64,000 bases of DNA from an uncultured Chloroflexia bacterium (GTDB taxonomy: Bacteria; Chloroflexota; Anaerolineae; Aggregatilineales; UBA3940): contig CAWBCR010000031.1 of the NCBI GenBank assembly GCA_963787375.1, forward strand, positions 215,706 to 279,705, in the 5' to 3' direction. Every line of letters starts with the position of its first letter. Position 1 is the first letter of the stretch. A program made the translations under genes and the position numbers. This document shows positions 7,399-64,000 of this stretch, piece after piece. The notes under the pieces are model-generated. The model had not been told where the DNA came from, did not search any database, and saw nothing but the letters and a program-made list of their open reading frames with translations.

Positions 7399-7563
7399 GG
7401 TTCCGCGCTCCGGATATGAAATCCACGCTAACATCATATCATGAGATGCGGCGGCAGGCGCAACGAGTTCGTGCTGATCCCCTGCCAGAGTTAACCTTGA
7501 TCCCGGCGGCGGGCCTCACTCCCTGTTATCGCAGCCCAGAATCAAGCGCACCCGCATGGCTTA

Positions 7564-7572: not shown

Positions 7573-7646
7573 GGTGTGCAGCATAGAGACCAGGCTCATG
7601 CCGGCGCGTGATGCGCCCGGCATTATGGGTGAGGACCGGAGAAGAC

Positions 7647-16148: not shown

Positions 16149-17255
16149 CTAGGGCACCCATGCCATCATAGCCACACTATCGATCTCCATTAATCCTCGC
16201 GTCAAATTGACCAGCGAGTTATCCGCAAGCGACAGAATCCATACGTCCCTGCCGTCTGAAAACGCGATTTCATTGCCATCGGGAGACCAGACAGGACATT
16301 GAAGGATCTCGAGATCGACATTGAACTCCAGCGAAGTAAGCAGCATCAGTTCTGTTGGGGAATACTCCCTGACTACACGTCCTTGAAGGTCGATAATGCG
16401 CAAGGTTCGAACGTAGCTCACTGCATCCAGGTACTCGCCGACTATCTCTTCACTATCCGGTGACCAAGAGAACTTGCCGTCAATCCGGTCGGCAAGTGGA
16501 CGGAAGTTCTCTGCAGAGCAGATGTGAGACTCGGCGCTACAGGTTACGTCCAAGAGGAACAGGGAATCAGAATTCGCGTTCAGCGCAAGGTGCTTCCCAT
16601 CGGGAGACCAATCGACATTCTCAAAACCGGGTTCAACAATCTGCTGTGGATGCCTGAATTCAGGAGGGATGAGAGACTCCGAGACGACACCTGTCTCAAG
16701 ATTCACGACTTCTAGGAACTGCCCATCACGAATATACGCTATGAACTCTCCATCGGGCGACCAACTCGGCGACCGGACAAAATCACCGGCTTCGATAACC
16801 TGGATGACATTGCCAGCTAAATCCAGTATGGCGATGCCTTTTTCGGTCGCAAAGGCGACAAGCCTGTTGATCGGAGAGACCGATGGGTCGTAGTAGTAAG
16901 GTTTTCCTGTGGTGAGCGTTTCAACGCTTGAGCCATCAACACAAATCAGATAGTAACCAAAATCCGTCGTGCCGCCCGTAATCGGCTCACCCCCTACCAG
17001 GATGCGGGTTTGGGTACATGCGTGATATGGCGTAGGCGTCGGGCGAGGGATCTCGGTAGAGGTAGGAGAGGGTTCTGGGGCTGCTGTTACGGTATTGTGG
17101 GTCTCCGTCGGTGTGGGTGACGGGGGATTCGATGTTTCTTCAACACATGCGACCAGATATATCGCCAGCAACAAGGCACTTGCAGAAACCATAGACGCCT
17201 TCAAAATAGCGGATGGTGTGGCTGCGCTTTTGAGTGCTCGAACCCAGTTACCCAT
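16149..17255 (-). CDS. TolB-like beta-propeller (PD40 'WSPDG' repeats) lipoprotein or secreted protein, in a lower-G+C patch
   Basis: Signal or lipobox-like 'SALLLAIYLVAC'. Repeated 'SWSPDGEF', 'DWSPDGKH', 'SWSPDSEE', 'VWSPDGNE'. Confidence 0.65.
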   Translation of the reverse strand: MGNWVRALKSAATPSAILKASMVSASALLLAIYLVACVEETSNPPSPTPTETHNTVTAAPEPSPTSTEIPRPTPTPYHACTQTRILVGGEPITGGTTDFGYYLICVDGSSVETLTTGKPYYYDPSVSPINRLVAFATEKGIAILDLAGNVIQVIEAGDFVRSPSWSPDGEFIAYIRDGQFLEVVNLETGVVSESLIPPEFRHPQQIVEPGFENVDWSPDGKHLALNANSDSLFLLDVTCSAESHICSAENFRPLADRIDGKFSWSPDSEEIVGEYLDAVSYVRTLRIIDLQGRVVREYSPTELMLLTSLEFNVDLEILQCPVWSPDGNEIAFSDGRDVWILSLADNSLVNLTRGLMEIDSVAMMAWVP

Positions 17256-17478
17256 TGCCTGCCCTCTGGAGAATAAGTCGGATATTCTTTGGTTCCGGGA
17301 GGCATCCCCATTATACGCGCAGGTCATGAGTAGGGCCGGGCGCTAGCCCGACGGAACGAGGCGACCCTCAGCGACACGTCAGCATCGCGCGTGTGGGGGC
17401 GGGGGTGAAGGTTTCCTGCTGAAAACGATAACCCCACGACCGGTCGGCCCGCCCAATTCTGCCAGATCGCGCGGCGTC

Positions 17479-24825: not shown

Positions 24826-24887
24826 GGCCGCCAGTATAGCAAATCAGAGAAGGGATTGCATATCGTGGCCGGAACCTCGCCCCCCTT

Positions 24888-24936
24888 CCCCCTCTCCATA
24901 GCATAAGCGCCGCAGGCGCGTTGCCTGAGAGGGGGG
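24888..24936. repeat. palindromic intergenic repeat sharing a 34-nt core with 55909..55962
   Basis: ccccctctcc ... gcataagcgccgcaggcgcgttgcctgagagggg. Confidence 0.6.
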
Positions 24937-25011: not shown

Positions 25012-25926
25012 CTAACCTGAATGGTGTTGCTGTGTCATAACTTCCAGGTGCGATTGAAGGAACTGTGCGATGTCGTCCAATGAGTGAACAGCCTGTGGCA
25101 GTGTCAAAAAAAGCTGCCACACATGCCACATGCGCGGATAAATCTCCAACCGCACATCAACGCCTGCCTCTTTTGCCAGTTCCTCGATACGAACCGCATC
25201 ATCGCGTAAAATCTCGTCTTCTCCGGCGTGAACGAGCAGCGGTGGCAGGTTGTGCCAATCGCCAAATACTGGCGAAATCAAGGGATCGTGTGCATCGTTG
25301 TGCGCCACATAGGATTGATTGTAGATTCTGGCTGCTCTGGGATGCAGCATCGGGTCATCGACCGTCTTAAAGAGATCGTCTCTATTGGTCAGGTCTGCCA
25401 CAGGCGAGAGACACGCCGCCGCCACAGGCAGCGGCTCACCGCTGTCGCGCAGCTTCATCAATGTTGTGATCGTCAAATTGCCGCCAGCCAAATCGCCCGC
25501 CACCACAATATTCTGCGCGGAAAAGCTCTGCTTCAACAGCCAGCGATAAGCGGTCACACAGTCGTCCACCGCCGCGGGAAATGGATATTCCGGCGCGAGA
25601 CGATAATCCACCATCAGCACACGGATGGACATCTTTCGCGCCAGATAGGCTACCATCTGACGGTGTAGGGATGTCAATCCATAGACGAATCCACCACCGT
25701 GCAGATAGAGCAGCACTTGATCTTCTGGGTTGTTTTTGGGGATGAGCCATTCGCACCGCACGCCGTCGGCAGACACAGCTTCGCGCGCGATGTCAGCGGG
25801 CAGGCGCACGCGTGTTGCACTTCGTTTCTCTGCCCAGCGTGCCACCGAGAGCGGCAGGTACGCTTGCAGGAAACGGATGATGGGCAACCTCGCGCGAATA
25901 TTACGTTCAATAGAGGACTGTGTCAT
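25012..25926 (-). CDS. alpha/beta-hydrolase fold-3 (hormone-sensitive-lipase family) esterase with a Leu at the nucleophile position
   Basis: 'LYLHGGGFVYG' oxyanion motif. 'VVAGDLAGGN' sits where the family has GDSAGG. Later Asp and His are present ('GEDEILRDD', 'MWHVW'). Confidence 0.8.
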   Translation of the reverse strand: MTQSSIERNIRARLPIIRFLQAYLPLSVARWAEKRSATRVRLPADIAREAVSADGVRCEWLIPKNNPEDQVLLYLHGGGFVYGLTSLHRQMVAYLARKMSIRVLMVDYRLAPEYPFPAAVDDCVTAYRWLLKQSFSAQNIVVAGDLAGGNLTITTLMKLRDSGEPLPVAAACLSPVADLTNRDDLFKTVDDPMLHPRAARIYNQSYVAHNDAHDPLISPVFGDWHNLPPLLVHAGEDEILRDDAVRIEELAKEAGVDVRLEIYPRMWHVWQLFLTLPQAVHSLDDIAQFLQSHLEVMTQQHHSG

Positions 25927-26522
25927 TGGGCAGCCTTTCCTTTGCAGTAAATTCCTGAATGATGGCTTTGAAGCGAGAGTCGTAAGGAACTATCGTAAGG
26001 TAGCTCATCTTAGCCTGTTTGGGAAGCAGTGCTTTCATCCGGTTGTATATAGACCGGAAGTGCACGCGGATATGGGGGCTAGATCGAATACCGGTGGGAG
26101 AGGGCTGAGTGAGGCAGAATCGCGGCTTCCTGAGCCTGTCGTGGACGAAAACACACATCCGTTCTCAAAGAGACGAATGAGGTATTCTACACATCGGCGG
26201 ATCCCGCGCTGATAAGTTGCTTAAGACTACAGCGATCTACCTCATCGAGAAGTGCCGGGAAGTCTCATCTCCGACTATTGCCAAGAGGCCGGTTGAGGCT
26301 GTTTCCCTGAGCTGATTAGGCTACAGGCCAACAGCTATAATCAGCAGTGTCCTTTCCTACGACACTACCGGGAAGATGATAACGCCCTGCGCCACAGCGC
26401 GCCCTGTGGGATCGAGCGGCGCGATGAGATATATTCAATAAAGCGCGGCGACTAGGCCCTTAATGCCGCGCTGTAGCCGTGGGGGGCCGCTGTTGGCCCA
26501 CCGATTCGCCACACCGTGAGGA

Positions 26523-37627: not shown

Positions 37628-38341
37628 CTATCGCTCAGAAACAGGTTTAACAATTACAAACCGAAGGTAGGTCACCGTTAGAAGCAACCATAACAAACTC
37701 GAAAAGGTAAGAAGTTTGAGGCTGAGCCCCCAAAATCCTGTGTAAATGCGTAAGAACATCGCCTGGCATAAGAAAATGGACGCTGCGATCATCACCAATG
37801 CTAAAATCGATGAGAAATGACGGATGGAACGCCACTTTTCCTCATGCTTGAAACGCCATGATAGCAAGATTGCGGCAAGAGACAGGCCAAAGAACGCCCC
37901 CAGTATTGCAAGTATATGGATGAAGCTAAATATTGTTTCAGGATAAGCTTCCACTACGACGGGGAAGATTCCTGCAATTAAAACAGTTGTCATATGAGGA
38001 ACCGTGCTACCTCCTTCGTTGGCGGGAAAAATCCCTGCAATTAAGATTCCCATGCTCCAAATCCCCAAGAGCAGAAGACCAATCGAGGACCCCACCGATC
38101 GGGACATTTCTTGATAAAGCCCGATAATTAGAGCGAGAGACCCCAAGCTCAGACCAACAAAGGTTGAGGCAACCAGCAATTCGTAAGGCGCAAGGTGATA
38201 GTTGCCTTCGAATGAGCTGATGAGATCATAGGCAGGATTCAGAAAATACAATGCGACAACAGCGATTGCGAAGTATGCAAACCCAATGACGGCAGCAGTC
38301 GCAGTTGGCACTTTGGATGAAGAATCAGCAGAGGATTTCAT
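37628..38341 (-). CDS. polytopic membrane protein in a low-G+C insert (possibly DUF998-like; family call tentative)
   Basis: GAAGGGAG RBS before the ATG at 38341. 6-7 hydrophobic helices. A/T-rich codon usage unlike its neighbours. Confidence 0.6.
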   Translation of the reverse strand: MKSSADSSSKVPTATAAVIGFAYFAIAVVALYFLNPAYDLISSFEGNYHLAPYELLVASTFVGLSLGSLALIIGLYQEMSRSVGSSIGLLLLGIWSMGILIAGIFPANEGGSTVPHMTTVLIAGIFPVVVEAYPETIFSFIHILAILGAFFGLSLAAILLSWRFKHEEKWRSIRHFSSILALVMIAASIFLCQAMFLRIYTGFWGLSLKLLTFSSLLWLLLTVTYLRFVIVKPVSER

Positions 38342-38463
38342 GCTCGCTCCCTTCGAATATTGCTTGAGGGATGATGCAAGACGACACTTTATTGTGTTCG
38401 AAACGAGCGGGCTGACGTGGTATTAAACAATGACCGCGTCGAGCCGTTGGCGACCTCGCCATT

Positions 38464-39753: not shown

Positions 39754-40263
39754 ATGGATACCTGGACGCTGCGCCGCACGCAGCCCGCCGATCATGACTG
39801 GATCGAGGCATTCGTCACCGAGCAGTGGGGCGCGCCGATCTCCGTCTCGCGCGGGCGCGTCTGCCGCCCCGCCGACCTGCCCGGCTTCGCCGCCGAAGCG
39901 CCGGGCGGCGAGGTGCTGGGCCTGGTCACCTACCGGATCGACGCCACGGCGGACGCCGCCGCCTGCGAGATCGTCACGCTCGACAGCCTGCGCCCAGGTG
40001 TGGGGATCGGCTCGGCGCTGATCGACGCCGTGCACGGCGAGGCGCAGGCGCACGGCTGCCGTCGCCTGTGGCTGATCACGACCAACGACAACCTGCACGC
40101 GCTGCGTTTCTACCAGAGGCGCGGCTTCGTGCTGGCCGCGCTGCGCCCCAATGCGCTGGCCGAGTTGCGGCGGATCAAGCCGTCGATCCCGCTGGTTGGC
40201 ATGGACGGCATCCCGCTGCGCGACGAGATCGAGCTTGAGACGTGGCTCAACAATGGGCCCTGA
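39754..40263 (+). CDS. GNAT-family N-acetyltransferase
   Basis: 'LRPGVGIGSALIDAV..AHGCRRLWLITTNDNLHALRFYQRRGF'. Confidence 0.8.
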   Translation: MDTWTLRRTQPADHDWIEAFVTEQWGAPISVSRGRVCRPADLPGFAAEAPGGEVLGLVTYRIDATADAAACEIVTLDSLRPGVGIGSALIDAVHGEAQAHGCRRLWLITTNDNLHALRFYQRRGFVLAALRPNALAELRRIKPSIPLVGMDGIPLRDEIELETWLNNGP

Positions 40264-42017
40264 CGCGCTTCGCACTGCGCTGCGCGACGAGATTCTCCCC
40301 GCGCTGCGGGCCGCCCGCCCGGACGCGCCGCGCGAGGAGTCCGTGCGCCGCCTGCTGATCGCCGCCGCCGCCGAACTGGCCGAGGCACGCGGGCTACATC
40401 TCGACGCGCTGCCCGAAGATCGCGCGCTGCTGGCCGGGCTGGATTTCACTGCGGCGGACTCCCTCTTTCCCGGCGACCTGTACGCCGGTCTCCTCGCCGA
40501 CGCGCACAGCCGGGGCCGCTACTACACGCCGCCCGCGCTGGCGCGGCGGGTCGCCGGTTGGGCGCTCGACGCGCTAGACGAGTTCAGACAACCTGCCGCG
40601 CGTCCTCGACCCGGCGATGGGGGCCGGGCACTTCCTGATCGCCGCCGGGGAGCATCTCGCCGCGCGGCTGGGCGACCCCGCCGACCCGTCCGTGCGCTGG
40701 CAGGCCGCCGCGCAGCTACACGGCGTCGACAGCGACCCGCTGGCGGCAGAGCTGGCCGCGATCAGCGTGTGGCTGTGGGCCGCGCAGCCCGGCACGACGC
40801 CCGCCGACCTGCGCCCCCGCCTGCTGTGCGCCGACGCGCTGCTCGACGACCTCTCGGCGCGGCTGCCGGAGGCGTTCGAGGCGGTGGTCGGCAACCCGCC
40901 ATATGCCAGCGTCTTCACCCGCGCCCGCGCCGACGATAACCAGCGCGATGCGCTCCGCGCCCGCTATGAGACGGCGACCGGCAGCTTCGACCTGGCCGTG
41001 CCGTTCGTCGAGCGGGCGGTGCGCTGGGCCGCGCCGGGCGGCGCGGTGGGGCTGGTGCTGCCCAACAAGCTGCTCGCCGCCGACTACGCGGGCGCGCTGC
41101 GCCGCTGGCTGTCCGCGCGGACAACCGTCATTTCGATAGCCGACTACGCGGGCGCGGAGCCGTTCGCGGCGGGCGTCTACCCGGTGGCGCTCGTGCTGCG
41201 CGTCGCAGCGCCACAGCCGGACGCGCCGCTGCACGTCTATCGCGCCGCCGATCATCGCGACACGCCGGTGTTGATCCGGCACGGCAGCCAGTCGGACCTG
41301 CACGCCGCGCCCGGCGACGTGTGGAGCGGCCCGCTCGACCCGGACTGGGACGCGCTGCGCGGCTGCTTCGATGGGGCAGTGCCGTTAGGGGATGTGGCGA
41401 CGCTGGCCGCCGGGCTGACCGTCGGCGAGGCCTACGACCTGCGTCCGCAGGTGTTCGACGCGCCGCCCGCCGCCCCGCTCGTCGACGCGGCCCAACTGCT
41501 GACCAGCGGCAGCATTGGCCGTCACCGCGCGCTGTGGGGCCACAAAGACACAACCTTCCTCAAGCGCCGCTACCACCGCCCGGCGATCATGCTGCGCGCG
41601 CTGCCGCCGCGCCGCCGCGCGCAGGCGCTGAGCGAGAAGCTGATCGTATCGGGGCTGAGCCAGCGCCCGCAGGCCGTCCACGACCACGGGCTGGCGCAGG
41701 CCAGCGTCGGCACGACGATCATCATGGGGTCGGCGTGGCCGCTCGGCGCGCTGTGCGCGCTGCTGAATTCGGGGCCTGCCGCCCGGCTGGCGCGGGCGCT
41801 GTTCGGCGGGCTGGCGCTCAGCGGCGGCTACCTGCGGCTGGGCAAGCGCGAGCTGAGCCTGTTCCCGCTGCCCGCCGTGCCCCCCACCGACCCGCGCCTG
41901 GCGCGATTGGCCGCGCTGGCCGGGCAGATGCCCCGCGCCGACGCCCTCGCGCGCGGCGACCTCGACGCGCAGATCGACGCGCTGGTGTGGGCGCTGTATG
42001 GAGTCGAAGCGGTGTAG
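40253..42017 (+). CDS. gamma-class N6-adenine DNA methyltransferase (Eco57I/TaqI-like); apparent frameshift near 40588
   Basis: The ATG at 40253 overlaps the GNAT stop. 'YYTPPALARRV', motif I 'VLDPAMGAGHFL', motif IV 'VVGNPPYA'. C-terminal TaqI-type target-recognition-like region. Confidence 0.8.
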
Positions 42018-46396: not shown

Positions 46397-47111
46397 ATGC
46401 CTGCATTGACCAATCATCAGTCAGTATTCGAAGTCTCATCCGCCTGGAAAACAGCCTACCCGGATGCCCACGCAGGGATTCTCGTGATGCGCGGAGTCGT
46501 GAATCCCAGGCGGCATTCAGATCTGGAGGCTCGCAAGCAGTTGCTGCAAGAGCAGCTTCGAAGCAGTTTCGCAGGTAAGGACCGGAGTGCCATCCGTACA
46601 TTACCGATCATTCAAGCCTATAGGGCTTACTACCGCCGCTTCAAGCAATCGTATCACGTCGAGATGCAGCTTGAAATCGATTGTTTTCAAAGGCAAGAGC
46701 CTGCCCGGTGTCGCGGCTCTGGTCGAGGCCATGTTCATGGCGGAGATCAAGAACCTGCTGCTGACGGCAGGCCATGATCTGGATGTGCTGCGGTTGCCTG
46801 TCACGCTCGACGTTGCCAGCGGCGATGAGCACTATACGCTCTTGCAAGGTGATGAGCAGGTTCTGAAAGCCGGCGATATGATGATGTCTGACCGGGAAGG
46901 GATCATCTCCAGCATCCTGTATGGCCCCGATAGGCGTACGCCAATCACTCCAGAGACACACAATGTATTATTCGCGGTCTATGCGCCCGCCGGCATTGAG
47001 GCAGAAGCAGTGCTCCGGCATCTGGACGATATCCGGCAAAACGTCCTGATCGTGGCACCGGAGGCCAATACCGAGATCATGCGGGTTTTCGGCGTAGATG
47101 AAAGCGGCTAG
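46397..47111 (+). CDS. B3/B4 tRNA-binding-domain protein; apparent frameshift near 46672
   Basis: 'LPIIQAYRAYYRRFKQSYHVEMQL' (ORF 46298) continues as 'SIVFKGKSLPGVAALVEAMFMAEIKNLLLTAGHDLD' (ORF 46587..47111). Confidence 0.6.
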
Positions 47112-47172
47112 GGACGTGCACGACGACAATCTTGCTTCCGCGCCGCACCGGAACGCACAGCCCGGCGAAATC

Positions 47173-47784
47173 ATGACTTTCGGCACTTATCCGCAGACGG
47201 CGGACGGCGCGGACCAAACGCCGATAAAGTGGCGGGTGCTGCAAAATTCCGGTAGTGAGCTGTTCATTTTGAGCGAGTACATTTTGGACTGCAAGCGGTA
47301 TCACGGTGAGTATACGGATGTTACCTGGCGCGACTGCGATTTGCGGAAGTGGCTGAACGACGAGTTTTATGACGCCGCGTTCAACGCCGCCGAGAAGGCA
47401 TTCGTCAAGACGACACATTGCACGGACAACGGAGCGGGTAGCCCGGACACAGAGGACAGGGTTTTCTTGCTCGGCGTTGCCGAGGTGAAGAGACTGACCG
47501 ATATACTCGGCAAGGATTTACGTCGTGCAATAGGAACGGAATTTGCCAGAGTAAAAAAGGCCGATGGCTGTCATTTGTACGTGTATGACAAAAGCGTCGA
47601 AGACAATTATGTGACCGACGAAAACGGCGAGAGACATGGCTGTTCATGGTGGTGGCTGAGAACCCAGCTCGGCGACCCGTCGCGGGCGACTTTTGTCGGC
47701 ACGCGCGCCAGCATCCGCAGCTACGGTCGCGTCAACCGCGTCCCCTATGGCGTGCGCCCCGCATTGAACCTTAATCTTCAATGA
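47173..47784 (+). CDS. DUF6273-like protein
   Basis: 'FGTYPQ..PIKWRVL', 'LRKWLNDEFYDAAF', 'DRVFLLGVAE', 'WWWLR', 'GVRPALNL' match my recollection of that family. The start is uncertain. Confidence 0.55.
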   Translation: MTFGTYPQTADGADQTPIKWRVLQNSGSELFILSEYILDCKRYHGEYTDVTWRDCDLRKWLNDEFYDAAFNAAEKAFVKTTHCTDNGAGSPDTEDRVFLLGVAEVKRLTDILGKDLRRAIGTEFARVKKADGCHLYVYDKSVEDNYVTDENGERHGCSWWWLRTQLGDPSRATFVGTRASIRSYGRVNRVPYGVRPALNLNLQ

Positions 47785-53934: not shown

Positions 53935-54271
53935 GCCGCTCACTGCGTACGTGTGATATTTTTTCTCTCTCATGTTCCTTGCTCCTGATTTCTCCAGCCC
54001 GAGACATTTTTCCTGTCCGGGGAATCAGGGCAAGGTCAATCATTACTGGCTAGGTCCCTTTCCATTGAGAATTTGCTGCATACATTTTTCAATCCTTGAC
54101 TCCCGGGTTTTGGATTGTGTCAAGTACCCATTTTCTGAAGGCAAGTGTCTGAGAATGATTGGCTCGCCGGGCGGAATTCCTCCCGAACCCCCTTTCCACC
54201 CGCCTCGCCTTGAAGCGGGAAGCGAAAAGGACGATTTCAAGTTTTTCTTTGGCGGCAATAGTGTTTTAATG

Positions 54272-54865
54272 TTACTGGTTAGACTGCCACTGGCTCAGGG
54301 GTGTGAGCTGTATCTGCTTCGCCAGGGTGTATGCGGTCGCCAGATCGCTGTCGCTCTCGACAAGCGTGCGACCGGCAACAAGCACCGAATTGTTGGGTGA
54401 GGATATCTGCGTCATTCCCTGCGGCACGGCTCCTTTCCAGCCGGGGCCGCTGATCAGGGTGTCGCCGGCCTTGGTTCCCGTGGTGCGTTTGCCGACGTAG
54501 GCAAAATTGGTGTTTTTCGACGGATCGGTGAACTGCACGCTGTAGTAACGACCGGCCATATCCGGCACGTGCAAGATTTGCGGTCCTTTACTGAGGTCTA
54601 ACCAGCCGACCGTAAGGAGCGTGTCGTGGTTCACGCCGGTAGTCATCAATTTTGAGGCCGAGGCGGGCGGGTGGAGGGGGTCTGCAAAAATCGCTTGGGG
54701 CTCCGTGTAGAGCGTATTGACCGGGATGGGGCCGTCGCCGCCTCCTTTAACGAGGATCGCTCTCTTGTACACATACAGCAGCAAACTTGGCCAGAAGTAG
54801 GTGAAAAGGGCCCATGCCACGACCATGACTGCACCGAATATGAGTAAATGTTCGTACGCCATCAT
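54272..54865 (-). CDS. DUF1254-domain protein with N-terminal TM helix
   Basis: 'GRYYSVQFTDPSKNTNFAY', 'GPGWKG'. Its ATG overlaps the upstream gene's stop (ATGA). Confidence 0.65.
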   Translation of the reverse strand: MMAYEHLLIFGAVMVVAWALFTYFWPSLLLYVYKRAILVKGGGDGPIPVNTLYTEPQAIFADPLHPPASASKLMTTGVNHDTLLTVGWLDLSKGPQILHVPDMAGRYYSVQFTDPSKNTNFAYVGKRTTGTKAGDTLISGPGWKGAVPQGMTQISSPNNSVLVAGRTLVESDSDLATAYTLAKQIQLTPLSQWQSNQ

Positions 54866-55533
54866 TTCATCTCCACAACAGGCGGCACCGTATACTCGCC
54901 GTCGAGAATGGCTGTGCCGGGCATATACGCGCGCAGCCAGAGGATGAAGTTGCCTGCAGGCGCGGGCAGCCAGTTGGATTCGTGCCCCACCGGAGCGGTG
55001 TTCTGCATGTAAACGTCGACGGAGCCATCGGCGTTTTGCGCAAGGCCGGAGCGGTCGCTGACGCTGTATCGGTTGATCGGATTCGACACAAAGTGATTAT
55101 TCGCATCACCCATCGTCAGCGACCAGAATGCATCGTTGGGCGGGAGCCCGCCTGCCGGAAAGTGCATGAGGTAGTCGTGCCGTCCGCTCAGTGTGTGGCC
55201 CGCGCCATCTGCGTTCGTCCACCAATACATCGCCTCTTGCGGCACGTTCACCGGGCCGGGGAACAGTTGGGCGTGCGCGGCTCGCAGCAGCATGCCGTTG
55301 CTAGGCTCGCCTAATCCAAACATGGTGATCCAGCCGTTGACCTTGGTGGCCTTGATCCTCGCGTAAATCTGGGCCATGACAAACGCCAGCCCAAAGCCGA
55401 TGAGGACGCCTTGTATCACGTCGCTCTGCACGGTTCTCGTACTCAAATCGATAAAGAAGAGCAAACGGATGATGAAGTAGGCGCATATCGCGCCGATGAG
55501 TATCGTAAAATAAGTGAATGTTGTTCTGCTCAT
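54862..55533 (-). CDS. DUF1214-domain protein with N-terminal TM helices
   Basis: 'NDAFWSLTMGD..NRYSVSD', 'NWLPAPAGNFILWLRAYMP'. Confidence 0.65.
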   Translation of the reverse strand: MSRTTFTYFTILIGAICAYFIIRLLFFIDLSTRTVQSDVIQGVLIGFGLAFVMAQIYARIKATKVNGWITMFGLGEPSNGMLLRAAHAQLFPGPVNVPQEAMYWWTNADGAGHTLSGRHDYLMHFPAGGLPPNDAFWSLTMGDANNHFVSNPINRYSVSDRSGLAQNADGSVDVYMQNTAPVGHESNWLPAPAGNFILWLRAYMPGTAILDGEYTVPPVVEMK

Positions 55534-55534
55534 G

Positions 55535-55738
55535 TTATTGATTCCTTTGACTTAACGGTATGAGCCGTATCTGTTTTGCAAGGCCATAGGCAGTTGGGAG
55601 GTCGCTGTCGCTGTACACGAGTATCCGTCCTATGACGAGCACCGAGTGATTCGGCGAGGATATTTGCATCATACCGCTTGGCACCTGTCCCTTCCAGTCC
55701 GGCCCCGTGATGAGGTAGTCACCTGACCTTACCCCGAT
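55535..55738 (-). pseudogene. 5'-truncated DUF1254 paralogue (C-terminal ~65 codons only)
   Basis: 'GDYLITGPDWKGQVPSGMMQISSPNHSVLVIGRILVYSDSDLPTAYGLAKQIRLIPLSQRNQ*' parallels the C-terminus of gene 54272..54865. In-frame stop at 55739..55741 and no start codon. Confidence 0.6.
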
Positions 55739-55908
55739 TTAACGGACACCTTCAGAACAAACATTCGAACTGCGACATCATAATCGATAGGCCCCTGATT
55801 GTTGAACTACGACAATATTAATGAGAATATCGCTAGGTCAAACATTTGTTCTAGATTTGAATAGTGGGAAGGGCGGGTGACCTCACCCTGACCTCGCTGC
55901 GTCAGTCT

Positions 55909-55962
55909 GCCCCTCGCCACCAGGCATAAGCGCCGTGGGCGCGTTGCCCGAGAGGGGCGAGG
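55909..55962. repeat. palindromic intergenic repeat sharing a 34-nt core with 24888..24936
   Basis: gcccctcgcc ... gcataagcgccgtgggcgcgttgcccgagagggg. 31 of 34 core positions identical. Confidence 0.6.
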
Positions 55963-55989
55963 TTTGTATCCTGCGCACATCGATACACA

Positions 55990-56066
55990 AACCAGGACAG
56001 GCGAACGCCTGCCCTGTCGTGAGTATAGCGTCTGGAAAACCGCCACCGGTAAGCGACCTCACCCCC
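55990..56066. repeat. 77-nt direct repeat, copy 2
   Basis: See 53858..53934. Confidence 0.7.
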
Positions 56067-56148
56067 TGCCTCGCTTCGCGCAGCCTTTCCCCCTCTCCAG
56101 ATATAGGTAACACCCATATCCTACGGCACTACCCTCCCGCATAACACC

Positions 56149-56826
56149 CTACCTGACTCCGACGGTCAGGTCTTTGTCTTCCATTTCCCAGGCGTGATCC
56201 AGCGTGTGATAGGCGGTGTGCCGAATCAGATACCGGAGCGGCCAGGTTCGGGCCATTTTGCCCTCAGAATGGAACGTCCGAATGGCATTGCAATAGGCGT
56301 CGCGGTGCGCTCTCAGGCCCTCGTCGGTCAGATTCGCACCGTCAGGAGTGCGTAGACCGAGCTTCTTAGCCCAGTCCTGCTCCGTGACCAGCACGTGCCG
56401 GACGATGCGGTCCCGATCCCGCCCGCCCCCTCGCGGACCCTTCTGCATCTCAGCCGACACGCGCAACCGCACATCATCGAAAAACGCCCAGCAGGCCTGC
56501 ATCAAGGTCAGTTCGCGTTCCAGTTCTCCGCTCGATAAGTCTTGCCTGTCGAAGCTTGAGAACGCGAAAGAGATGCCCCAGAAGTCGGTTGATCCCGTGC
56601 CCGGATATTGTTCAACCATGTCAACCGTGGTGATAGCTGCAAACTCTCCATCCATCCCGGCCAGCTTCGCCACCTGGGCATAGCGTGGAAGATAGGATTG
56701 CAACCTTTCAATCGCGGCCTCCCCGGTCTTCGCACCACGCTCCAGACCGGGCCAATCCGGCGCCACTGCCACCACCTTCTTGCCTTTCGGTCCGATTTCG
56801 AGCGTCACCCGAAGTTGGTTAGCCAT
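56149..56826 (-). CDS. hypothetical protein (C-terminal DinB-like His-rich helix signature is tentative)
   Basis: ATG at 56826 (MANQLRVTLEIG..). 'LIRHTAYHTLDHAWEM'. Lower G+C than the flanks. Confidence 0.5.
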   Translation of the reverse strand: MANQLRVTLEIGPKGKKVVAVAPDWPGLERGAKTGEAAIERLQSYLPRYAQVAKLAGMDGEFAAITTVDMVEQYPGTGSTDFWGISFAFSSFDRQDLSSGELERELTLMQACWAFFDDVRLRVSAEMQKGPRGGGRDRDRIVRHVLVTEQDWAKKLGLRTPDGANLTDEGLRAHRDAYCNAIRTFHSEGKMARTWPLRYLIRHTAYHTLDHAWEMEDKDLTVGVR

Positions 56827-56952
56827 CTCTGCTTCCCTGACGGTCAAGAGGTCAATTTTCGCCCCTTTACCTTTCCGCTTTTTCTCAACATGTTACCATC
56901 AAAAACAGTCAGAGCCTGCCCTCGCGAAGCGTGGCAAGGGATGAGGTAATTG

Positions 56953-60486: not shown

Positions 60487-61332
60487 TCATTTCGTGGGCG
60501 ATCCACCATCGCCGGGCGGGTCCGCCTCGTCCCACATCTGTTCCATCTTCATGTAGCTGTCGGGATACTGGCCGGTGTAGCGCAGGAAGCTGGGGATCGG
60601 GTAGCGCACCTGACCCTTGTGCGTCCCCTCCAGCCCCTTGATGATCATCCCGATCTTGCTCGCCGGGATGCTGAAGCCCATCTCGCCGTCCTCGGTCTGC
60701 GCGAAGATGCGGTCGCCGTAGCACGGCAGGATCACCTGGCACTCGTCGGTCTGCATGGCGGTGATCACCGCGTCGGCGCAGTCGATGCGCCCGCAGAACG
60801 AAGACGAAACGCGCCCGCCGGTGGACCACAGGCGGGCGGTGACGAGGCGCATCACCTGCGCGGAATTGCCGTAAATAAGGATGACGTGCGGCTCGAAGTT
60901 GGCGCGGTGCAGCGGCGCGCTGGCGACCCCCTGCCACTGCCCATAGTCCCACTTGTCGACCCCCGCCTCGGTCACCACGCCCGCCGCCGGCGTTTCGGTG
61001 TACATCCCGGCGCAGGTCATGCCGTTCAGGAAGTAGTCGAGCATCGGCTCGAAGCCCCACACCACCTTCGCCAGCGGGCACGACAGGTCGTCGCGGTCCA
61101 TGCCCATCGACCAGCCGTAGCGGCGGCTCATGGCGAAGCCCTGGCAGATCGCGATCTGCTCGCCGAGGTCGGCCTGCGGGCGTTTGGCGCGCTCCGGGAA
61201 CGGCTCGCCGGGCGCGATCATGCGGATGGCAATCGGAAACTGGGTCAGGCGGAGGTAGGTGGATAGGGCGTCGTTCAGCGCGGCAACGTCAGCCAGCGCT
61301 GCGCTGCGAAATGTGGTCCCCTCGACACTCAT
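60487..61332 (-). CDS. DUF169-like protein
   Basis: 'QFPIAIRMI', 'ICQGFAMSRRYGWSMGM', 'LSCPLAKVVWGF' fit my recollection of COG2043/DUF169. Sits directly upstream of the E1/E2 genes. Confidence 0.55.
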   Translation of the reverse strand: MSVEGTTFRSAALADVAALNDALSTYLRLTQFPIAIRMIAPGEPFPERAKRPQADLGEQIAICQGFAMSRRYGWSMGMDRDDLSCPLAKVVWGFEPMLDYFLNGMTCAGMYTETPAAGVVTEAGVDKWDYGQWQGVASAPLHRANFEPHVILIYGNSAQVMRLVTARLWSTGGRVSSSFCGRIDCADAVITAMQTDECQVILPCYGDRIFAQTEDGEMGFSIPASKIGMIIKGLEGTHKGQVRYPIPSFLRYTGQYPDSYMKMEQMWDEADPPGDGGSPTK

Positions 61333-61452
61333 CGCTGCGGTTTTCCTTTGGTCCCTCTGGCGAGGGTTCTATTATGTACCCTCTTTACCGATTATATCAC
61401 ATTCGCCGGGCGCGAAACCAGAGCGGGGCGATTGTCCCGCCGCGATCCGTTC

Positions 61453-61488
61453 CGCTCTCCGCCGGGCGGAGAGGGGTTAGGGGTGAGG
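61453..61488. repeat. member of the G/C-rich palindromic repeat family
   Basis: cgctctccgcc-gg-gcggagag followed by ggggtgagg. Confidence 0.5.
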
Positions 61489-61728
61489 TCTCCGGGTTGG
61501 CTTCAGCCGACATATCATTCATAGCCCGATGATTGATCATCGGGCGGCTGGAGGAGCCGGTCCCGGCGAGCCGTGACGGTCAGCATCGACCAGCCGGTGG
61601 CGGAGCTCGTCGCGGCGGTTGGCCGCCAATTCCGAGAAATGCACCTATGATTTAGACTCGGTAATTGCTGAAGTCATCAGAATTGGTATAGACTTATAAA
61701 ATGATTTCTGCTCTGCATTGGAGTGATC

Positions 61729-63304
61729 ATGTTTGCGCTTTCAGCCGATTTGGTTACTTGGGCGATTGAGTCTCTTGTTCGTCACCACGACACTGATATA
61801 TTCCCTCAAATCTTTGAATTCCAGGCCATAGATCACTGCAAAGACGACGTATTAAGGAGTTTCTCCAAGCAAGATAATAGTCAACGCCAGACTCGACCGT
61901 TTCGCCGTTGTTTGGTGCCAAAGCAACGCTATGGATTTCGGATCGCGATAAGCTTGACCCTTTGGACACGCTTTTCTACACTGCACTTATCTACGAAGTT
62001 GGTGAACAGATCGAGTCTGCCAGATTACCGGCGGATTCCGAGATTGTATTCTCGCACAGATTTGTTCCGGACAATGAGAACTTCCTTATGTTTGATCCGA
62101 ACATTGGATATAAGGAATTCCAAGAGCATTCGGAGGAACTCGCAGAACAGTATCCCTTCGTTGCAGTGACTGACATAGCAGATTTCTTCCCACGAATTTA
62201 TTTCCATCATCTTGAGAACGCTCTGGATTCGGCAATATCGAAATCCAAAGAACATGTGAAAGCTATCTGTCACTTGGTGAAGGGTTGGAATCAGAACGTT
62301 TCTTACGGGATACCAGTTGGAAACAATCCTTCGCGACTGCTCTCAGAACTCGTACTTGATGGAATCGACAGAGCTCTAAGAGTTGAGAAGCTTCGATTTC
62401 TCAGATTTGCTGATGATTTTCGGATCTTCTGTCACTCAAAGGACGAAGCTTACAGATCTCTCGCTGTTCTAGCCAATACACTTTATGGATATTCGCTAAC
62501 GCTCCAATCCCAGAAGACGTATGTTGTTGATTCAGCGCACTTCATAAGTGACTATGTCGATACGGAAATAAGGCGCGAGATCGGGAAGTTTTGCAGATGG
62601 ATTCGAGGAAATCGTAGCTCTTCTTGGACTAGAGGACCCCTATGAGTTTATTAACTATCAAGCCTTGCAAACATCCATCAAGTCACAAATCGATGAGCTA
62701 AACCTACTGCAATTGCTCCAACAGCAAGTGGACAAGGAGGAAATTGACATTTCGTTAACGAAATTCCTGATCAATCGAATTGGTCAATTGCAAAGTACGA
62801 GTGCCATCAAGTTGCTACTTCACAACATCGATATGTTTTACCCAGTCTTTCCGGAGATAATCCGCTATCTTGCTAGAAGTCATCGATGTGACTCCCTTCA
62901 GATTCGCGAATTAGAATAGGACAGTTCTTGCTCAAATTGCTGCAAGATTCTGGTCGTTAGCCATCTTGAGTTTCACAGGATGCTCATCCTCTCGCTTTTC
63001 GCTGGAAGCAGAGGTTGGGGCAACGAGGACTCGCTGCCAAGTATTTATAGTAGCGCAAGCGATCTGCTGGACCAGACGCACTGTCTTGCTTGCAATCGGA
63101 AAGAGCGAGCAAGGTTTCTGGCTGAAGCCCAAGAAATACCAAATGGAGCAAATGCCAATCTGGGAGCGAAGGGCATTTCTATATGCTGCTAGCTGTCTTC
63201 CCGGCGATGAGCGGAAGCACTATTACAACGCCGTCAAAAACAAAGTTGATGAGTTGGAACGGTATATAATCGAATGGGCACCTGGGCAACCTATTCACGG
63301 CTAG
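61729..63304 (+). pseudogene. stand-alone reverse transcriptase with helical C-terminal extension (UG/Abi-like), broken by at least 5 frameshifts or stops, in a low-G+C island
   Basis: 'PKQRYGFRIAI' then 'LDPLDTLFYTALIYE'. Motif A 'VAVTDIADFFPRIYFHHL', motif B 'GIPVGNNPSRLLSELVL', motif C 'FLRFADDFRIFCHS'. The reading frame changes near 61950, 62590, 62880-62950 (including the TAG at 62917) and 63085. Confidence 0.65.
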
Positions 63305-63477
63305 TGTCAATGGCCTGCTATTCTCGCACCCAAGCAAGGTTGAAGCAGTGTGACCCTGATTGGTGCAATATCATCAATACTCGAATGCGAGCAATTACCT
63401 AAGCAAGGACTCTGCGGCCCGTCGCACGATGCGGTCGACGCCACCCCCTGCCAGATCGCGCGAACAACCCAACCACC

Positions 63478-63862
63478 CTATCCTTTGACATACGACAGCT
63501 TTTCGCAGATGAGACCATCCTTCACTTTGAAGACGTCGACTCCCCGGACATGCCCTTCTGTTCCGGCCCCATCCACCCAGCTATAGTTCCAGCGCAGGAT
63601 ACACCGGTTACCCACGCTGAAAACCTCCTCGATGTCGATGTGGGCCTGGGGCGAACTCGCGGAAGAAGTCCTGCCAGAACTGCGTCACGGCTTCCTTCCC
63701 CGAATACAGCGTGCCATCGGGAGCCGGGGCCGTGTTTTCGAAGACGCAGTCCTCGCTCATCAGCGCCATCATCCCGGCGACATCGTGACGGTTGAAGGCC
63801 TCGTTGAACGCAAGGACAGCGCGGATCGCTTCTTCGACGCGTGACATGCGGATTGGACTCAT
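63478..63862 (-). CDS. SnoaL/NTF2-like small protein; apparent frameshift near 63648
   Basis: GGAGGCATATCGAC before the ATG at 63862. 'AIRAVLAFNEAFNRHDVAGMMALMSEDCVFE' continues after a shift as 'HIDIEEVFSVGNRCILRWNYSW..VDVFKVKDGLICEKLSYVKG*'. Confidence 0.65.
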
Positions 63863-63890
63863 GTCGATATGCCTCCGCTGATAGCCATCT

Positions 63891-63949
63891 GCGCCCGCGG
63901 GCGCGTTGCCGACGGCTCTTGTTCCCCCTCTCCAACTCTGGAGAGGGGG
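63891..63949. repeat. member of the G/C-rich palindromic repeat family
   Basis: gcgcccgcgggcgcgttgcc (compare the core at 24911 and 55931), then ccccctctcc-aactct-ggagaggggg. Confidence 0.55.
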
Positions 63950-64000
63950 TAGGCATTGCCCGATGGGCCGCAAGCAAATGAGCAGAGCTCATTTGCGAGG

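What the first reader, a model, noticed from the sequence alone, without database searches (positions are those of the whole stretch)
61640..63420. Low-G+C island carrying a stand-alone UG/Abi-like reverse transcriptase that is heavily disrupted
Seen in the sequence. Base composition drops abruptly between about 61640 and 63420, next to the high-G+C DUF169/E1 operon. The island holds one long coding unit with RT motifs A, B and C (DIADFF, GIPVGNNPSRLL, FADD). A ~230-codon helical C-terminal extension follows ('HNIDMFYPVFPEIIRYL', 'FHRMLILSLFAG', 'IWERRAFLYAASCLPGDERKHYY'). It has no maturase or endonuclease domain, no group II intron-like flanks and no adjacent Cas or retron partner. The frame changes at least five times and there is an in-frame TAG at 62917. 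Established knowledge. Single-gene RTs with helical-repeat C-termini (AbiA/AbiK/Abi-P2 and the UG/DRT classes) are anti-phage defence genes, usually horizontally acquired. Inference. This is a horizontally acquired defence-type RT. It is either decaying or badly affected by homopolymer indel errors. Its disruption density looks higher than in the rest of the window.
Basis: partly seen in the sequence, partly recalled or inferred. Interest (0 to 1): 0.65.

Follow-up and report, generated by a model that had tools for sequence, protein, structure and literature searches.

The report
Broken DRT8-type defence reverse transcriptase gene
A 1.8-kb patch of foreign-looking, low-G+C DNA carries a single anti-phage reverse transcriptase gene of the known DRT8/UG7 family, broken by six one-base frame shifts that cannot be told apart from assembly errors without reads; it is an ordinary member of a known family.

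Summary
G+C falls from about 0.65-0.70 to 0.43 between about 61650 and 63400. That stretch holds one + strand coding unit (61729-63304) with RT motifs A, B and C and a helical C-terminal half.

It is a UG7 / DRT type 8 reverse transcriptase, a Class 1 UG/Abi RT. PADLOC Drt8 gives E = 4.5e-149 over the whole profile. It is not a group II intron, retron or DGR RT. It has no PD-(D/E)XK nuclease partner and no conserved flanking RNA, so it fits the untested stand-alone UG7 variant.

Six frame shifts break the gene, five of them in the +1 direction. The TAG at 62917 is a consequence of those shifts, not a nonsense mutation. Spliced back together, the gene gives 524 codons, the family length, with no stop codon.

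At least seven housekeeping or neighbouring genes in the window carry the same kind of one-base shift, so the assembly is noisy. The RT still has about 30 times the background density.

I put locally poor consensus at about 0.55-0.6 and true decay at about 0.4. Only reads can decide. If the gene is intact, the likely mechanism is protein-primed, template-independent DNA synthesis, as in DRT4, AbiK and Abi-P2.

The parts
61640..63420 (.). Low-G+C island (about 0.43-0.51 against about 0.65-0.70 in the flanks). It contains only the RT gene, about 90 nt upstream and about 115 nt downstream.
   Evidence: Composition profile. Synteny with the closest relatives (L001, L012-L014) ends at the start of DUF169, and they carry neither the RT nor the SnoaL gene.
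61729..63304 (+). UG7 / DRT type 8 reverse transcriptase coding sequence, broken into seven frame segments. Spliced, it gives 524 codons followed by TAG at 63302-63304.
   Evidence: PADLOC Drt8 E=4.5e-149, profile 3-489/493. 883 homologues of about 524 aa, the best 59-60% identical. tblastn frame map.
61720..61723 (+). GGAG, a Shine-Dalgarno-like motif 5 nt before the ATG at 61729.
   Evidence: Read from the sequence. The ATG at 61729 aligns with the family start: MFALS against MTTLS.
62142..62546 (+). Core of the RT palm and fingers (Pfam RVT_1). It holds motif A DIADFF 62172-62189, motif B YGIPVGNNPSRLL 62304-62342 and motif C FADD 62406-62417.
   Evidence: Pfam RVT_1 E=1.3e-11. Motif coordinates. 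The catalytic Asp residues are kept.
62100..62120 (+). NIGYKEF, containing the nearly invariant family Tyr (Y128 of P0001). This is a candidate priming tyrosine. Inference only.
   Evidence: Y128 is conserved in at least 90% of 20 aligned homologues. DRT4 primes on Tyr125, about 115 residues before its catalytic DD. The position was not superposed here.
62674..63286 (+). C-terminal all-helical repeat (alphaRep-like) domain.
   Evidence: AlphaFold2 model of homologue P0001 (pLDDT 86, pTM 0.84) is all helices over residues 316-519. Full-length Foldseek matches to AbiK, Abi-P2, DRT4, DRT6 and AbiA. The window sequence aligns to the family here without gaps apart from the frame-shift sites.
61948..61951 (+). 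Frame shift 1: one base missing (gcgATAAGctt where the family has the invariant T-Q, ACN CAR).
62586..62586 (+). Frame shift 2: one extra base (atcgggAagtttt).
   Evidence: The family length is fixed here (E-I-x-S/A-L).
62878..62878 (+). Frame shift 3: shift in the +1 direction (gctagaAgtc). It is either one extra base or two missing.
   Evidence: The family length varies slightly in this loop.
62897..62900 (+). Frame shift 4: four bases (TTCA) where the family has none, that is one extra codon plus one extra base.
62952..62952 (+). Frame shift 5: one extra G (tctGgtc).
63067..63067 (+). Frame shift 6: one extra C (ctgCtgg).
62917..62919 (+). TAG that ends the mis-framed ORF piece 62665-62919. 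It is not in the homology-guided reading path.
60487..61332 (-). Left flank: host DUF169 gene, intact, 84% identical to an Anaerolineae MAG.
63478..63876 (-). Right flank: host SnoaL_2-family gene, itself split by a +1 shift near 63630. The upper coordinate (start codon) is approximate.
   Evidence: SnoaL_2 profile positions 1-51 and 49-101 fall in two frames. Sequence context.

Best explanation
The island is a horizontally acquired single-gene anti-phage module. It encodes a UG7 / DRT type 8 reverse transcriptase (Class 1 UG/Abi: RT domain plus C-terminal helical-repeat domain) of the partner-less variant. It sits between host metabolic genes of a high-G+C Chloroflexota-like (Anaerolineae-related) genome.

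As assembled, it cannot be translated, because six one-base-type frame shifts break it.

I consider it somewhat more likely (about 0.55-0.6) that most of these shifts are consensus errors in a locally poorly supported stretch of a noisy assembly. On that reading the gene is, or very recently was, intact.

If intact, its most likely mode of action is inferred from its closest characterised structural relatives, DRT4, DRT6, AbiK and Abi-P2. It would be an oligomeric polymerase that primes on one of its own tyrosines and makes single-stranded DNA without a template. During phage infection that product would accumulate and stop the cell (abortive infection).

Shown here: family identity, domain architecture, lack of a partner gene or ncRNA, foreign composition, the frame-shift map, and the window-wide frame-shift noise.

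Inferred: the biochemical mechanism, the defence role in this host, and the artefact-versus-decay call.
For: Identity:
- PADLOC Drt8 E=4.5e-149 over profile 3-489/493; the next best is UG21 at 1.5e-51.
- Pfam finds RVT_1 only.
- 883 homologues at E<=1e-10; the 120 best listed are mostly about 517-530 aa.
- A family profile against the PDB hits Abi-P2 (2e-18), UG15/DRT4 (1.6e-16) and AbiK (2e-10).
- The AF2 model of homologue P0001 (pLDDT 86) has a helical C-terminal half. Foldseek puts AbiK, Abi-P2, DRT4, DRT6 (TM 0.61/0.64), UG15 and AbiA on top over the full length.

Literature:
- UG7 is DRT type 8, Class 1. About half of its members have no associated gene (PMC9226505).
- DRT4 is protein-primed on Tyr125 and template-independent (PMC12783706).

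Foreign origin:
- G+C is 0.44 against 0.67 in the flanks.
- RT homologues in five other loci are also 5-16 points below their flanks and have no shared neighbour.

For 'mostly assembly noise':
- At least seven other genes in the window carry single frame shifts. They include E2 acyltransferase, NDH-2, an M20 peptidase and a flippase.
- 11 of the 13 shifts, in and outside the RT, go in the +1 direction (binomial P=0.011).
- The spliced RT is exactly the family length. It has no nonsense codon, no indel larger than one codon, and keeps 79 of 84 columns that are at least 95% conserved.
Against: The frame-shift density in the RT is about 30 times the rest of the window (P about 1e-7 if noise were uniform). 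Nothing in the sequence explains such a local burst.

Other lower-G+C patches of the window (0.51-0.57) carry intact, full-domain genes.

Conserved-site losses are on the high side: 9 of 118 columns at >=90% conservation, against a family mean of 4.1. Only 7 of 108 members are as bad. The losses include the invariant T-Q next to shift 1 and the H-G of the HGL motif, together with a one-codon deletion.

No reads, coverage or second assembly are available. The source genome is not in the look-up collections.

The mechanism of DRT8 itself has not been established (PMC13213688). The only tested DRT8 needed its nuclease partner.
Confidence: 0.55

Rival explanations
1. True pseudogene. The DRT8-type RT was acquired by horizontal transfer and has been inactivated in the organism, for example because an abortive-infection polymerase is costly or toxic. 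The six shifts are real mutations. The one-base shifts elsewhere in the window are a separate, technical layer.
For: - Six of the 13 detected shifts fall in 2.5% of the window.
- A non-essential foreign gene is where real lesions would accumulate.
- Conserved-motif erosion sits at about the 93rd percentile of the family (T74/Q75, D212G, H255Y/G256S with a one-codon deletion).
- Other low-G+C patches are not disrupted, so composition alone does not produce errors.
Against: - There is no nonsense codon and no deletion larger than one codon, and the length equals the family length.
- Five of six shifts are in the +1 direction. From established knowledge, bacterial pseudogenes are deletion-biased and show a broad range of indel sizes.
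- The signature is the same as in housekeeping genes, which can hardly all be dead.
Confidence: 0.4
2. It is a remnant of the two-gene DRT8 system (RT plus PD-(D/E)XK nuclease) whose nuclease gene has been lost.
For: The experimentally validated DRT8 required the nuclease (PMC9226505). 150 of 385 UG7 members have it.
Against: - The island has only about 90 nt before and about 170 nt after the RT before host genes begin.
- The five related loci examined also lack any shared neighbour.
- Mestre et al. describe the partner-less form as a phylogeny-congruent variant.
Confidence: 0.05
3. It is another kind of RT element: a group II intron, retron, DGR or CRISPR-associated RT.
For: There are weak generic RT-domain matches: group_II_RT_mat 62 bits and retron St85 35 bits.
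Against: - Those scores are far below the curated cut-offs of 300 and 235.
- There is no intron, msr/msd or other Rfam match.
- There are no template/variable repeat pairs.
- There are no cas genes nearby.
- The full-length best match is Drt8.
Confidence: 0.02
4. It is a chimeric assembly join or contaminant: the low-G+C stretch does not belong to this genome.
For: There is an abrupt composition change and locally poor sequence quality. No relative shares the junctions.
Against: High-G+C host-like coding sequence continues on both sides (DUF169; SnoaL with G+C-rich third positions), so two clean mis-joins around exactly one gene would be needed. RT homologues elsewhere are likewise single low-G+C genes among host genes.
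Confidence: 0.05

Closest known systems
UG7 / DRT type 8 reverse transcriptases (Mestre et al. 2022, PMC9226505), stand-alone variant
   Same: End-to-end profile match (PADLOC Drt8, E=4.5e-149). Same length (524 aa). RT domain plus C-terminal helical-repeat domain. Single gene with no conserved neighbour. Lower G+C than the host.
   Different: It is broken by six frame shifts as assembled. The closest intact relative is only about 60% identical. The host appears to be a high-G+C Chloroflexota lineage. The variant without a nuclease has never been tested for defence.
DRT8 as validated in E. coli (UG7 RT plus PD-(D/E)XK nuclease, protects against T5)
   Same: Same RT family.
   Different: There is no nuclease gene here or in the closest relatives' loci. 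In the tested system the nuclease active site was required.
DRT4 (UG15) and DRT6 (UG12)
   Same: Single-gene Class 1 UG/Abi RTs. They are the best or near-best structural matches over the full length (DRT6 TM 0.61/0.64; DRT4 E=2.5e-11). The family has a conserved Tyr about 100 residues before the catalytic DD, comparable to the priming Tyr125 of DRT4.
   Different: Only about 15% sequence identity. PADLOC Drt4 and Drt6 scores are far lower (94 and 87 bits against 496). The trigger and the product of UG7 are unknown.
AbiK and Abi-P2 (PDB 7R06-7R08; PMC9508834)
   Same: Top Foldseek and PDB-profile matches. RT plus helical C-terminal domain. These are the paradigm for protein-primed, template-independent DNA synthesis in abortive infection.
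   Different: 13-16% identity. They have a different oligomer-forming C-terminus and a different position of the priming residue (Tyr44 in AbiK; PDB 7z0z is listed as its Y44F variant). They are plasmid- or prophage-borne in Firmicutes and E. coli.

Membership tests
UG7 / DRT type 8 RT (Class 1 UG/Abi) | Best, full-length match to the UG7/Drt8 sequence profile | tested here: met
   PADLOC PDLC03783 Drt8 E=4.5e-149, residues 5-519 on profile 3-489/493. The runner-up is UG21 at 1.5e-51.
UG7 / DRT type 8 RT (Class 1 UG/Abi) | RT palm with catalytic motifs A, B and C (xxDD) | tested here: met
   Pfam RVT_1 E=1.3e-11. DIADFF, YGIPVGNNPSRLL and FADD are present, and the catalytic Asp columns are kept.
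UG7 / DRT type 8 RT (Class 1 UG/Abi) | C-terminal alpha-helical repeat (alphaRep) domain fused to the RT | tested here: met
   Tested on the 60%-identical homologue P0001. The AF2 model is all-helical over residues 316-519, and full-length Foldseek hits go to AbiK, Abi-P2, DRT4, DRT6 and AbiA. The window's C-terminal half aligns to the family without gaps other than the frame-shift sites.
UG7 / DRT type 8 RT (Class 1 UG/Abi) | An open reading frame able to give the full protein | tested here: not met
   Six frame shifts in the assembled sequence. Whether they exist in the organism is unknown.
DRT8 system as experimentally validated (RT plus nuclease) | Adjacent PD-(D/E)XK nuclease gene (cluster 17 of Mestre et al.) | tested here: not met
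   The RT fills the island. The neighbours are DUF169 and SnoaL_2 on the opposite strand. The relatives' loci have no shared partner. This is consistent with the stand-alone UG7 variant.
DRT8 system as experimentally validated (RT plus nuclease) | Protection against phage that depends on the RT active site | not testable with these tools
   Needs expression and phage challenge.
Protein-primed template-independent Abi/DRT polymerases (AbiK, Abi-P2, DRT4) | Priming tyrosine and covalent protein-DNA product made without a template | not testable with these tools
   Only a candidate is seen: a nearly invariant Tyr (Y128; NIGYKEF at 62100-62120).
ncRNA-dependent DRTs (DRT2, DRT3, DRT9) | Conserved structured non-coding RNA next to the RT | tested here: not met
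   No conservation in the 260 nt upstream across six loci. No Rfam match at E<=1. The downstream 136 nt fold no better than shuffles (z=0.03). The upstream 129 nt give z=-2.7, and that fold includes a host-side G+C-rich hairpin.
Group II intron RT/maturase | Maturase (X) or endonuclease domain, and intron RNA domains flanking the ORF | tested here: not met
   TIGR04416 scores 62 bits against a cut-off of 300. Pfam finds RVT_1 only. No Intron_gpII Rfam hit.
Retron | Retron-type RT profile and msr/msd RNA | tested here: not met
   retron_St85_RT scores 34.6 bits against a cut-off of 235. No Rfam retron RNA.
Diversity-generating retroelement | Template/variable repeat pair and an accessory gene | tested here: not met
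   No direct repeat longer than 19 nt in 61250-63750. No accessory ORF.
Integron-type gene cassette | attC-like imperfect hairpin with a GTTRRRY core at the cassette end | tested here: inconclusive
   No significant hairpin downstream, and no canonical core was seen by eye. A 10-nt perfect inverted repeat brackets the island but is not found in homologue loci. The closest homologue's RT is flanked by a recurring 86-183-nt repeat within a cassette-like array, and that repeat is absent here.

The most novel reading that the evidence does not exclude
The six frame shifts are real. They would record the rapid, multi-hit silencing of a newly acquired, partner-less DRT8 polymerase in a Chloroflexota host, which would imply that this untested UG7 variant is active and costly on its own. 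A related reading is that partner-less UG7 genes travel as single-gene cassettes: the closest homologue sits between copies of a recurring repeat in a toxin-antitoxin cassette array.
Probability: 0.25. Interest if true: 0.4.

Novelty: new member of a known kind. Interest (0 to 1): 0.2.

Why it matters
As it stands, this adds one divergent member (about 60% identity to the nearest relative) to a catalogued defence RT family, in a phylum where such genes are little studied.

Its practical value is twofold. First, it flags that this assembly carries one-base frame shifts in many genes, so any gene-level inference from it needs read support. Second, the partner-less UG7 clade is large: 883 homologues at E<=1e-10, and the ones inspected are solitary genes. 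It is structurally close to DRT4, DRT6 and AbiK, yet has no established mechanism. An intact orthologue such as P0001 would be a reasonable candidate for testing whether DRT8 RTs are also protein-primed, template-independent polymerases.

Tried and rejected
- Searched for a near-identical intact or equally broken copy. There were no DNA matches in plasmids or phages, and no close protein-level locus in metagenome or viral contigs. Exact look-ups of two flanking proteins found nothing, so the frame shifts could not be cross-checked.\n- Searched for an empty site. DUF169 relatives in genomes and metagenomes (L001, L012-L015) have neither the RT nor the SnoaL gene, and synteny stops at the start of DUF169. 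The insertion borders could not be defined.\n- ncRNA idea: rejected.\n- Terminal inverted repeats as a sign of a mobile cassette: a 10-nt perfect pair brackets the island. Six such pairs occur by chance in the 2.5-kb region, and homologue loci show none at their borders. Treated as probable chance.\n- The repeat flanking the closest homologue's RT is absent from the window and from the other RT loci.\n- CTCTCC..GGAGAGGGG hairpins at 61455 and 63926 bracket the RT plus SnoaL. They look like lineage-typical intergenic hairpins, since L001 has similar ones. They are not part of the RT element.\n- Low G+C as the cause of errors: rejected, because other low-G+C genes are intact.\n- GATC proximity of three shifts: post hoc and weak, not pursued.\n- tRNA-linked integration: no tRNA in the window or in six homologue loci.
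Full report
**Observation**

The composition drop is real and sharp. G+C in 300-nt windows is 0.63-0.71 up to about 61650, 0.42-0.46 from 61650 to 63000, about 0.50 to 63450, and about 0.6 afterwards. This is the lowest value in the 64-kb window; other dips reach only 0.51-0.57.

Upstream, on the minus strand, lie DUF169 and then E1 alpha, E1 beta and E2 of a 2-oxoacid dehydrogenase. Downstream lies a SnoaL_2-family gene. The quoted RT motifs and C-terminal peptides are at the stated places.

**Anatomy of the coding unit**

I aligned intact homologues to the DNA with tblastn and then located the junctions. The reading path is:
- 61729-61950
- 61950-62585
- 62587-62877
- 62879-62896
- 62901-62951
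- 62953-63066
- 63068-63304

That makes six frame shifts. One is a missing base at about 61950. Five are shifts in the +1 direction, at 62586, 62878, 62897-62900, 62952 and 63067.

At 62586, 62952 and 63067 the family length is fixed, so these three are single-base insertions. At 62878 the shift could be +1 or -2. At 62897-62900 there are four extra bases.

The TAG at 62917 lies outside this path. It merely ends the mis-framed ORF piece.

Spliced, the product has 524 codons, equal to the family length. It has no internal stop, a GGAG 5 nt before the ATG, and only one in-frame one-codon deletion relative to 108 homologues.

**What it is**

The spliced protein matches PADLOC's Drt8 model end to end (E=4.5e-149, profile 3-489 of 493). 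The next best model is UG21 at 1.5e-51. Pfam sees only RVT_1.

NCBIfam models all score far below their cut-offs:

| NCBIfam model | Score (bits) | Curated cut-off (bits) |
|---|---|---|
| Drt4 | 85 | 450 |
| group II intron RT/maturase | 62 | 300 |
| retron St85 | 35 | 235 |
| AbiA | 27.5 | 250 |

The protein search found 883 homologues at E<=1e-10. The 120 best listed are mostly about 517-530 aa, and the best is 59-60% identical, from an Anaerolineae MAG.

Mestre et al. (PMC9226505) define UG7 as DRT type 8, a Class 1 UG/Abi RT with a C-terminal helical-repeat domain. It has two phylogeny-congruent variants. One (150 of 385 members) is linked to a PD-(D/E)XK nuclease. That is the variant tested, and both the RT and the nuclease active sites were needed against T5. 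The other variant has no associated gene.

Here the island has no room for a partner. The loci of five relatives (L002, L008-L011) also show solitary RTs with unrelated neighbours. This RT therefore fits the partner-less, untested variant.

**Structure**

A family profile against PDB sequences hits Abi-P2 (2e-18), UG15/DRT4 (1.6e-16) and AbiK (2e-10).

An AlphaFold2 model of homologue P0001, built with a 20-sequence alignment, has pLDDT 86 and pTM 0.84. It shows an RT fold followed by an all-helical domain over residues 316-519.

Foldseek against the PDB ranks AbiK, Abi-P2, DRT4, DRT6 (TM 0.61/0.64), UG15 and AbiA first, each over the full length.

**No RNA partner**

- There are no Rfam matches.
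- There is no conserved upstream sequence among six loci.
- The downstream spacer folds no better than shuffles.
- There is no tRNA.

**Foreign origin**

The gene's G+C is 0.44 against about 0.67 in the flanks. In five other loci the RT is also 5-16 points below its surroundings.

Relatives of the flanking DUF169 gene (84% identity; L001, L012, L013) are syntenic from E2 to DUF169 and then diverge. They have neither the RT nor the SnoaL gene. An empty site could not be recovered.

**Are the frame shifts real?**

I tracked the coding frame across the window with a codon-position HMM. I then checked each same-strand frame switch by translation, split Pfam domains or an orthologue. This gave seven frame shifts outside the RT:

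| Gene | Position | Direction | Evidence |
|---|---|---|---|
| Flippase | ~4557 | -1 | Polysacc_synt_3 2-194 / 198-289 |
| NDH-2 | ~15458 | +1 | Pyr_redox_2 2-171 / 167-291 |
| M20 peptidase | ~22719 | +1 | split Pfam domains |
| EEP nuclease | ~39193 | +1 | Exo_endo_phos 1-53 / 66-225 |
| Eco57I-like methyltransferase | ~40587 | +1 | probable |
| E2 acyltransferase | 58227 | +1 | GA[A]C against the L001 orthologue |
| SnoaL_2 | ~63630 | +1 | profile 1-51 / 49-101 |

So the assembly as a whole carries about one frame shift per 8-9 kb, in genes that a free-living bacterium can hardly all have lost. That points to technical noise. The RT's shifts share that signature: single bases, 11 of 13 in the +1 direction overall (binomial P=0.011), and short runs only. 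The one A5 run in the RT is read correctly.

Further points favour noise in the RT:
- The length is exactly that of the family.
- There is no nonsense codon.
- There is no larger deletion.
- 79 of 84 columns that are at least 95% conserved are kept.

Other points favour real decay:
- Six shifts in 1.58 kb is about 30 times the background (P about 1e-7).
- Other lower-G+C genes are intact.
- Conserved-site losses are at about the 93rd percentile of the family. They include T74/Q75 beside shift 1 and the HG of the HGL motif.

My weighing is about 0.55-0.6 for a locally poorly supported consensus (for example a strain-variable island with low read depth) and about 0.4 for a true pseudogene. No data here can settle it, because the source genome is not in the look-up collections.

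**How it most likely works, if intact**

DRT8 has no established mechanism (PMC13213688). Its closest characterised relatives, by fold and by profile, are:
- DRT4, which makes random ssDNA without a template, primed on its own Tyr125. A phage DNA-binding protein protects that product and makes it toxic (PMC12783706).
- AbiK and Abi-P2 (PMC9508834).

The UG7 family has a nearly invariant Tyr (Y128; NIGYKEF in the window) about 100 residues before the catalytic DD.

I therefore infer protein-primed, template-independent DNA synthesis leading to abortive infection. This was not tested.

**Verdict**

This is a new, divergent and as-assembled broken member of a known family. It is of low interest in itself, and it mainly serves as a warning about assembly quality.

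Noticed in passing
window ~4557, ~15458, ~22719, ~39193, ~40587, 58227, ~63630: Single-base frame shifts split seven non-RT genes: a flippase, NDH-2, an M20 peptidase, an EEP nuclease, an Eco57I-like N6 methyltransferase, the E2 acyltransferase and a SnoaL_2 gene. Six of the seven are in the +1 direction. The assembly looks indel-noisy throughout.
   Followed up: yes
window 40076-42017 (+): An Eco57I / N6_Mtase-type DNA methyltransferase gene sits next to a GNAT gene. It is split near 40587 and may belong to a restriction-modification or BREX-like system.
   Followed up: partly
window 5899-7515 (-) and 7587-9776 (+): A TIR_2 plus FGE-sulfatase fusion protein is divergently adjacent to an NB-ARC/TPR STAND NTPase (Pfam). 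This is possibly an immune-type gene pair, about 52 kb from the RT.
   Followed up: partly
window 16149-17342, 25012-25989, 37628-38422, 46503-47784, 53957-56892: Several other lower-G+C patches (0.51-0.59) carry intact genes: a PD40 beta-propeller, Abhydrolase_3, DUF998, B3_4/DUF6273 and DUF1254/DUF1214. The genome seems to be a mosaic with many acquired segments.
   Followed up: partly
L003 6430-6612, 7858-8044, 9772-9958, 11630-11715 (locus of the closest RT homologue P0001): The homologue's RT is the last unit of a same-strand array of toxin-antitoxin cassettes (PIN/MazE, NT/HEPN). The cassettes are separated by a recurring 86-183-nt repeat, with one copy on each side of the RT. All six contigs carrying it end 340-400 nt after the RT. 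This resembles a cassette array. The repeat is absent from the window.
   Followed up: partly
window 61660-61669 and 63390-63399: A perfect 10-nt inverted repeat (GGTAATTGCT / AGCAATTACC) sits at the two edges of the low-G+C island. It is not seen at the borders of homologue loci and is probably chance.
   Followed up: partly
window 61455-61481 and 63926-63953: These are the only two full copies in the window of a hairpin motif, CTCTCC-N-GGAGAGGGG-TAGG (a looser 1-mismatch match to its 3' half lies at 24884-24897). Each lies upstream of a minus-strand gene (DUF169, SnoaL), and together they bracket the RT plus SnoaL. The relative L001 has similar hairpins, so this is likely a lineage-specific intergenic element.
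   Followed up: partly
L011 7572-9622: In a metagenome contig (ERZ27268959) carrying a protein that NCBI names from Desulfitobacterium hafniense, the UG7 homologue sits directly after Cas7/Cas5d-like genes. It is followed by about 1.7 kb with no ORF of 80 aa or more, and 2 kb with no called gene. No tandem or CRISPR repeats were detected there.
   Followed up: partly
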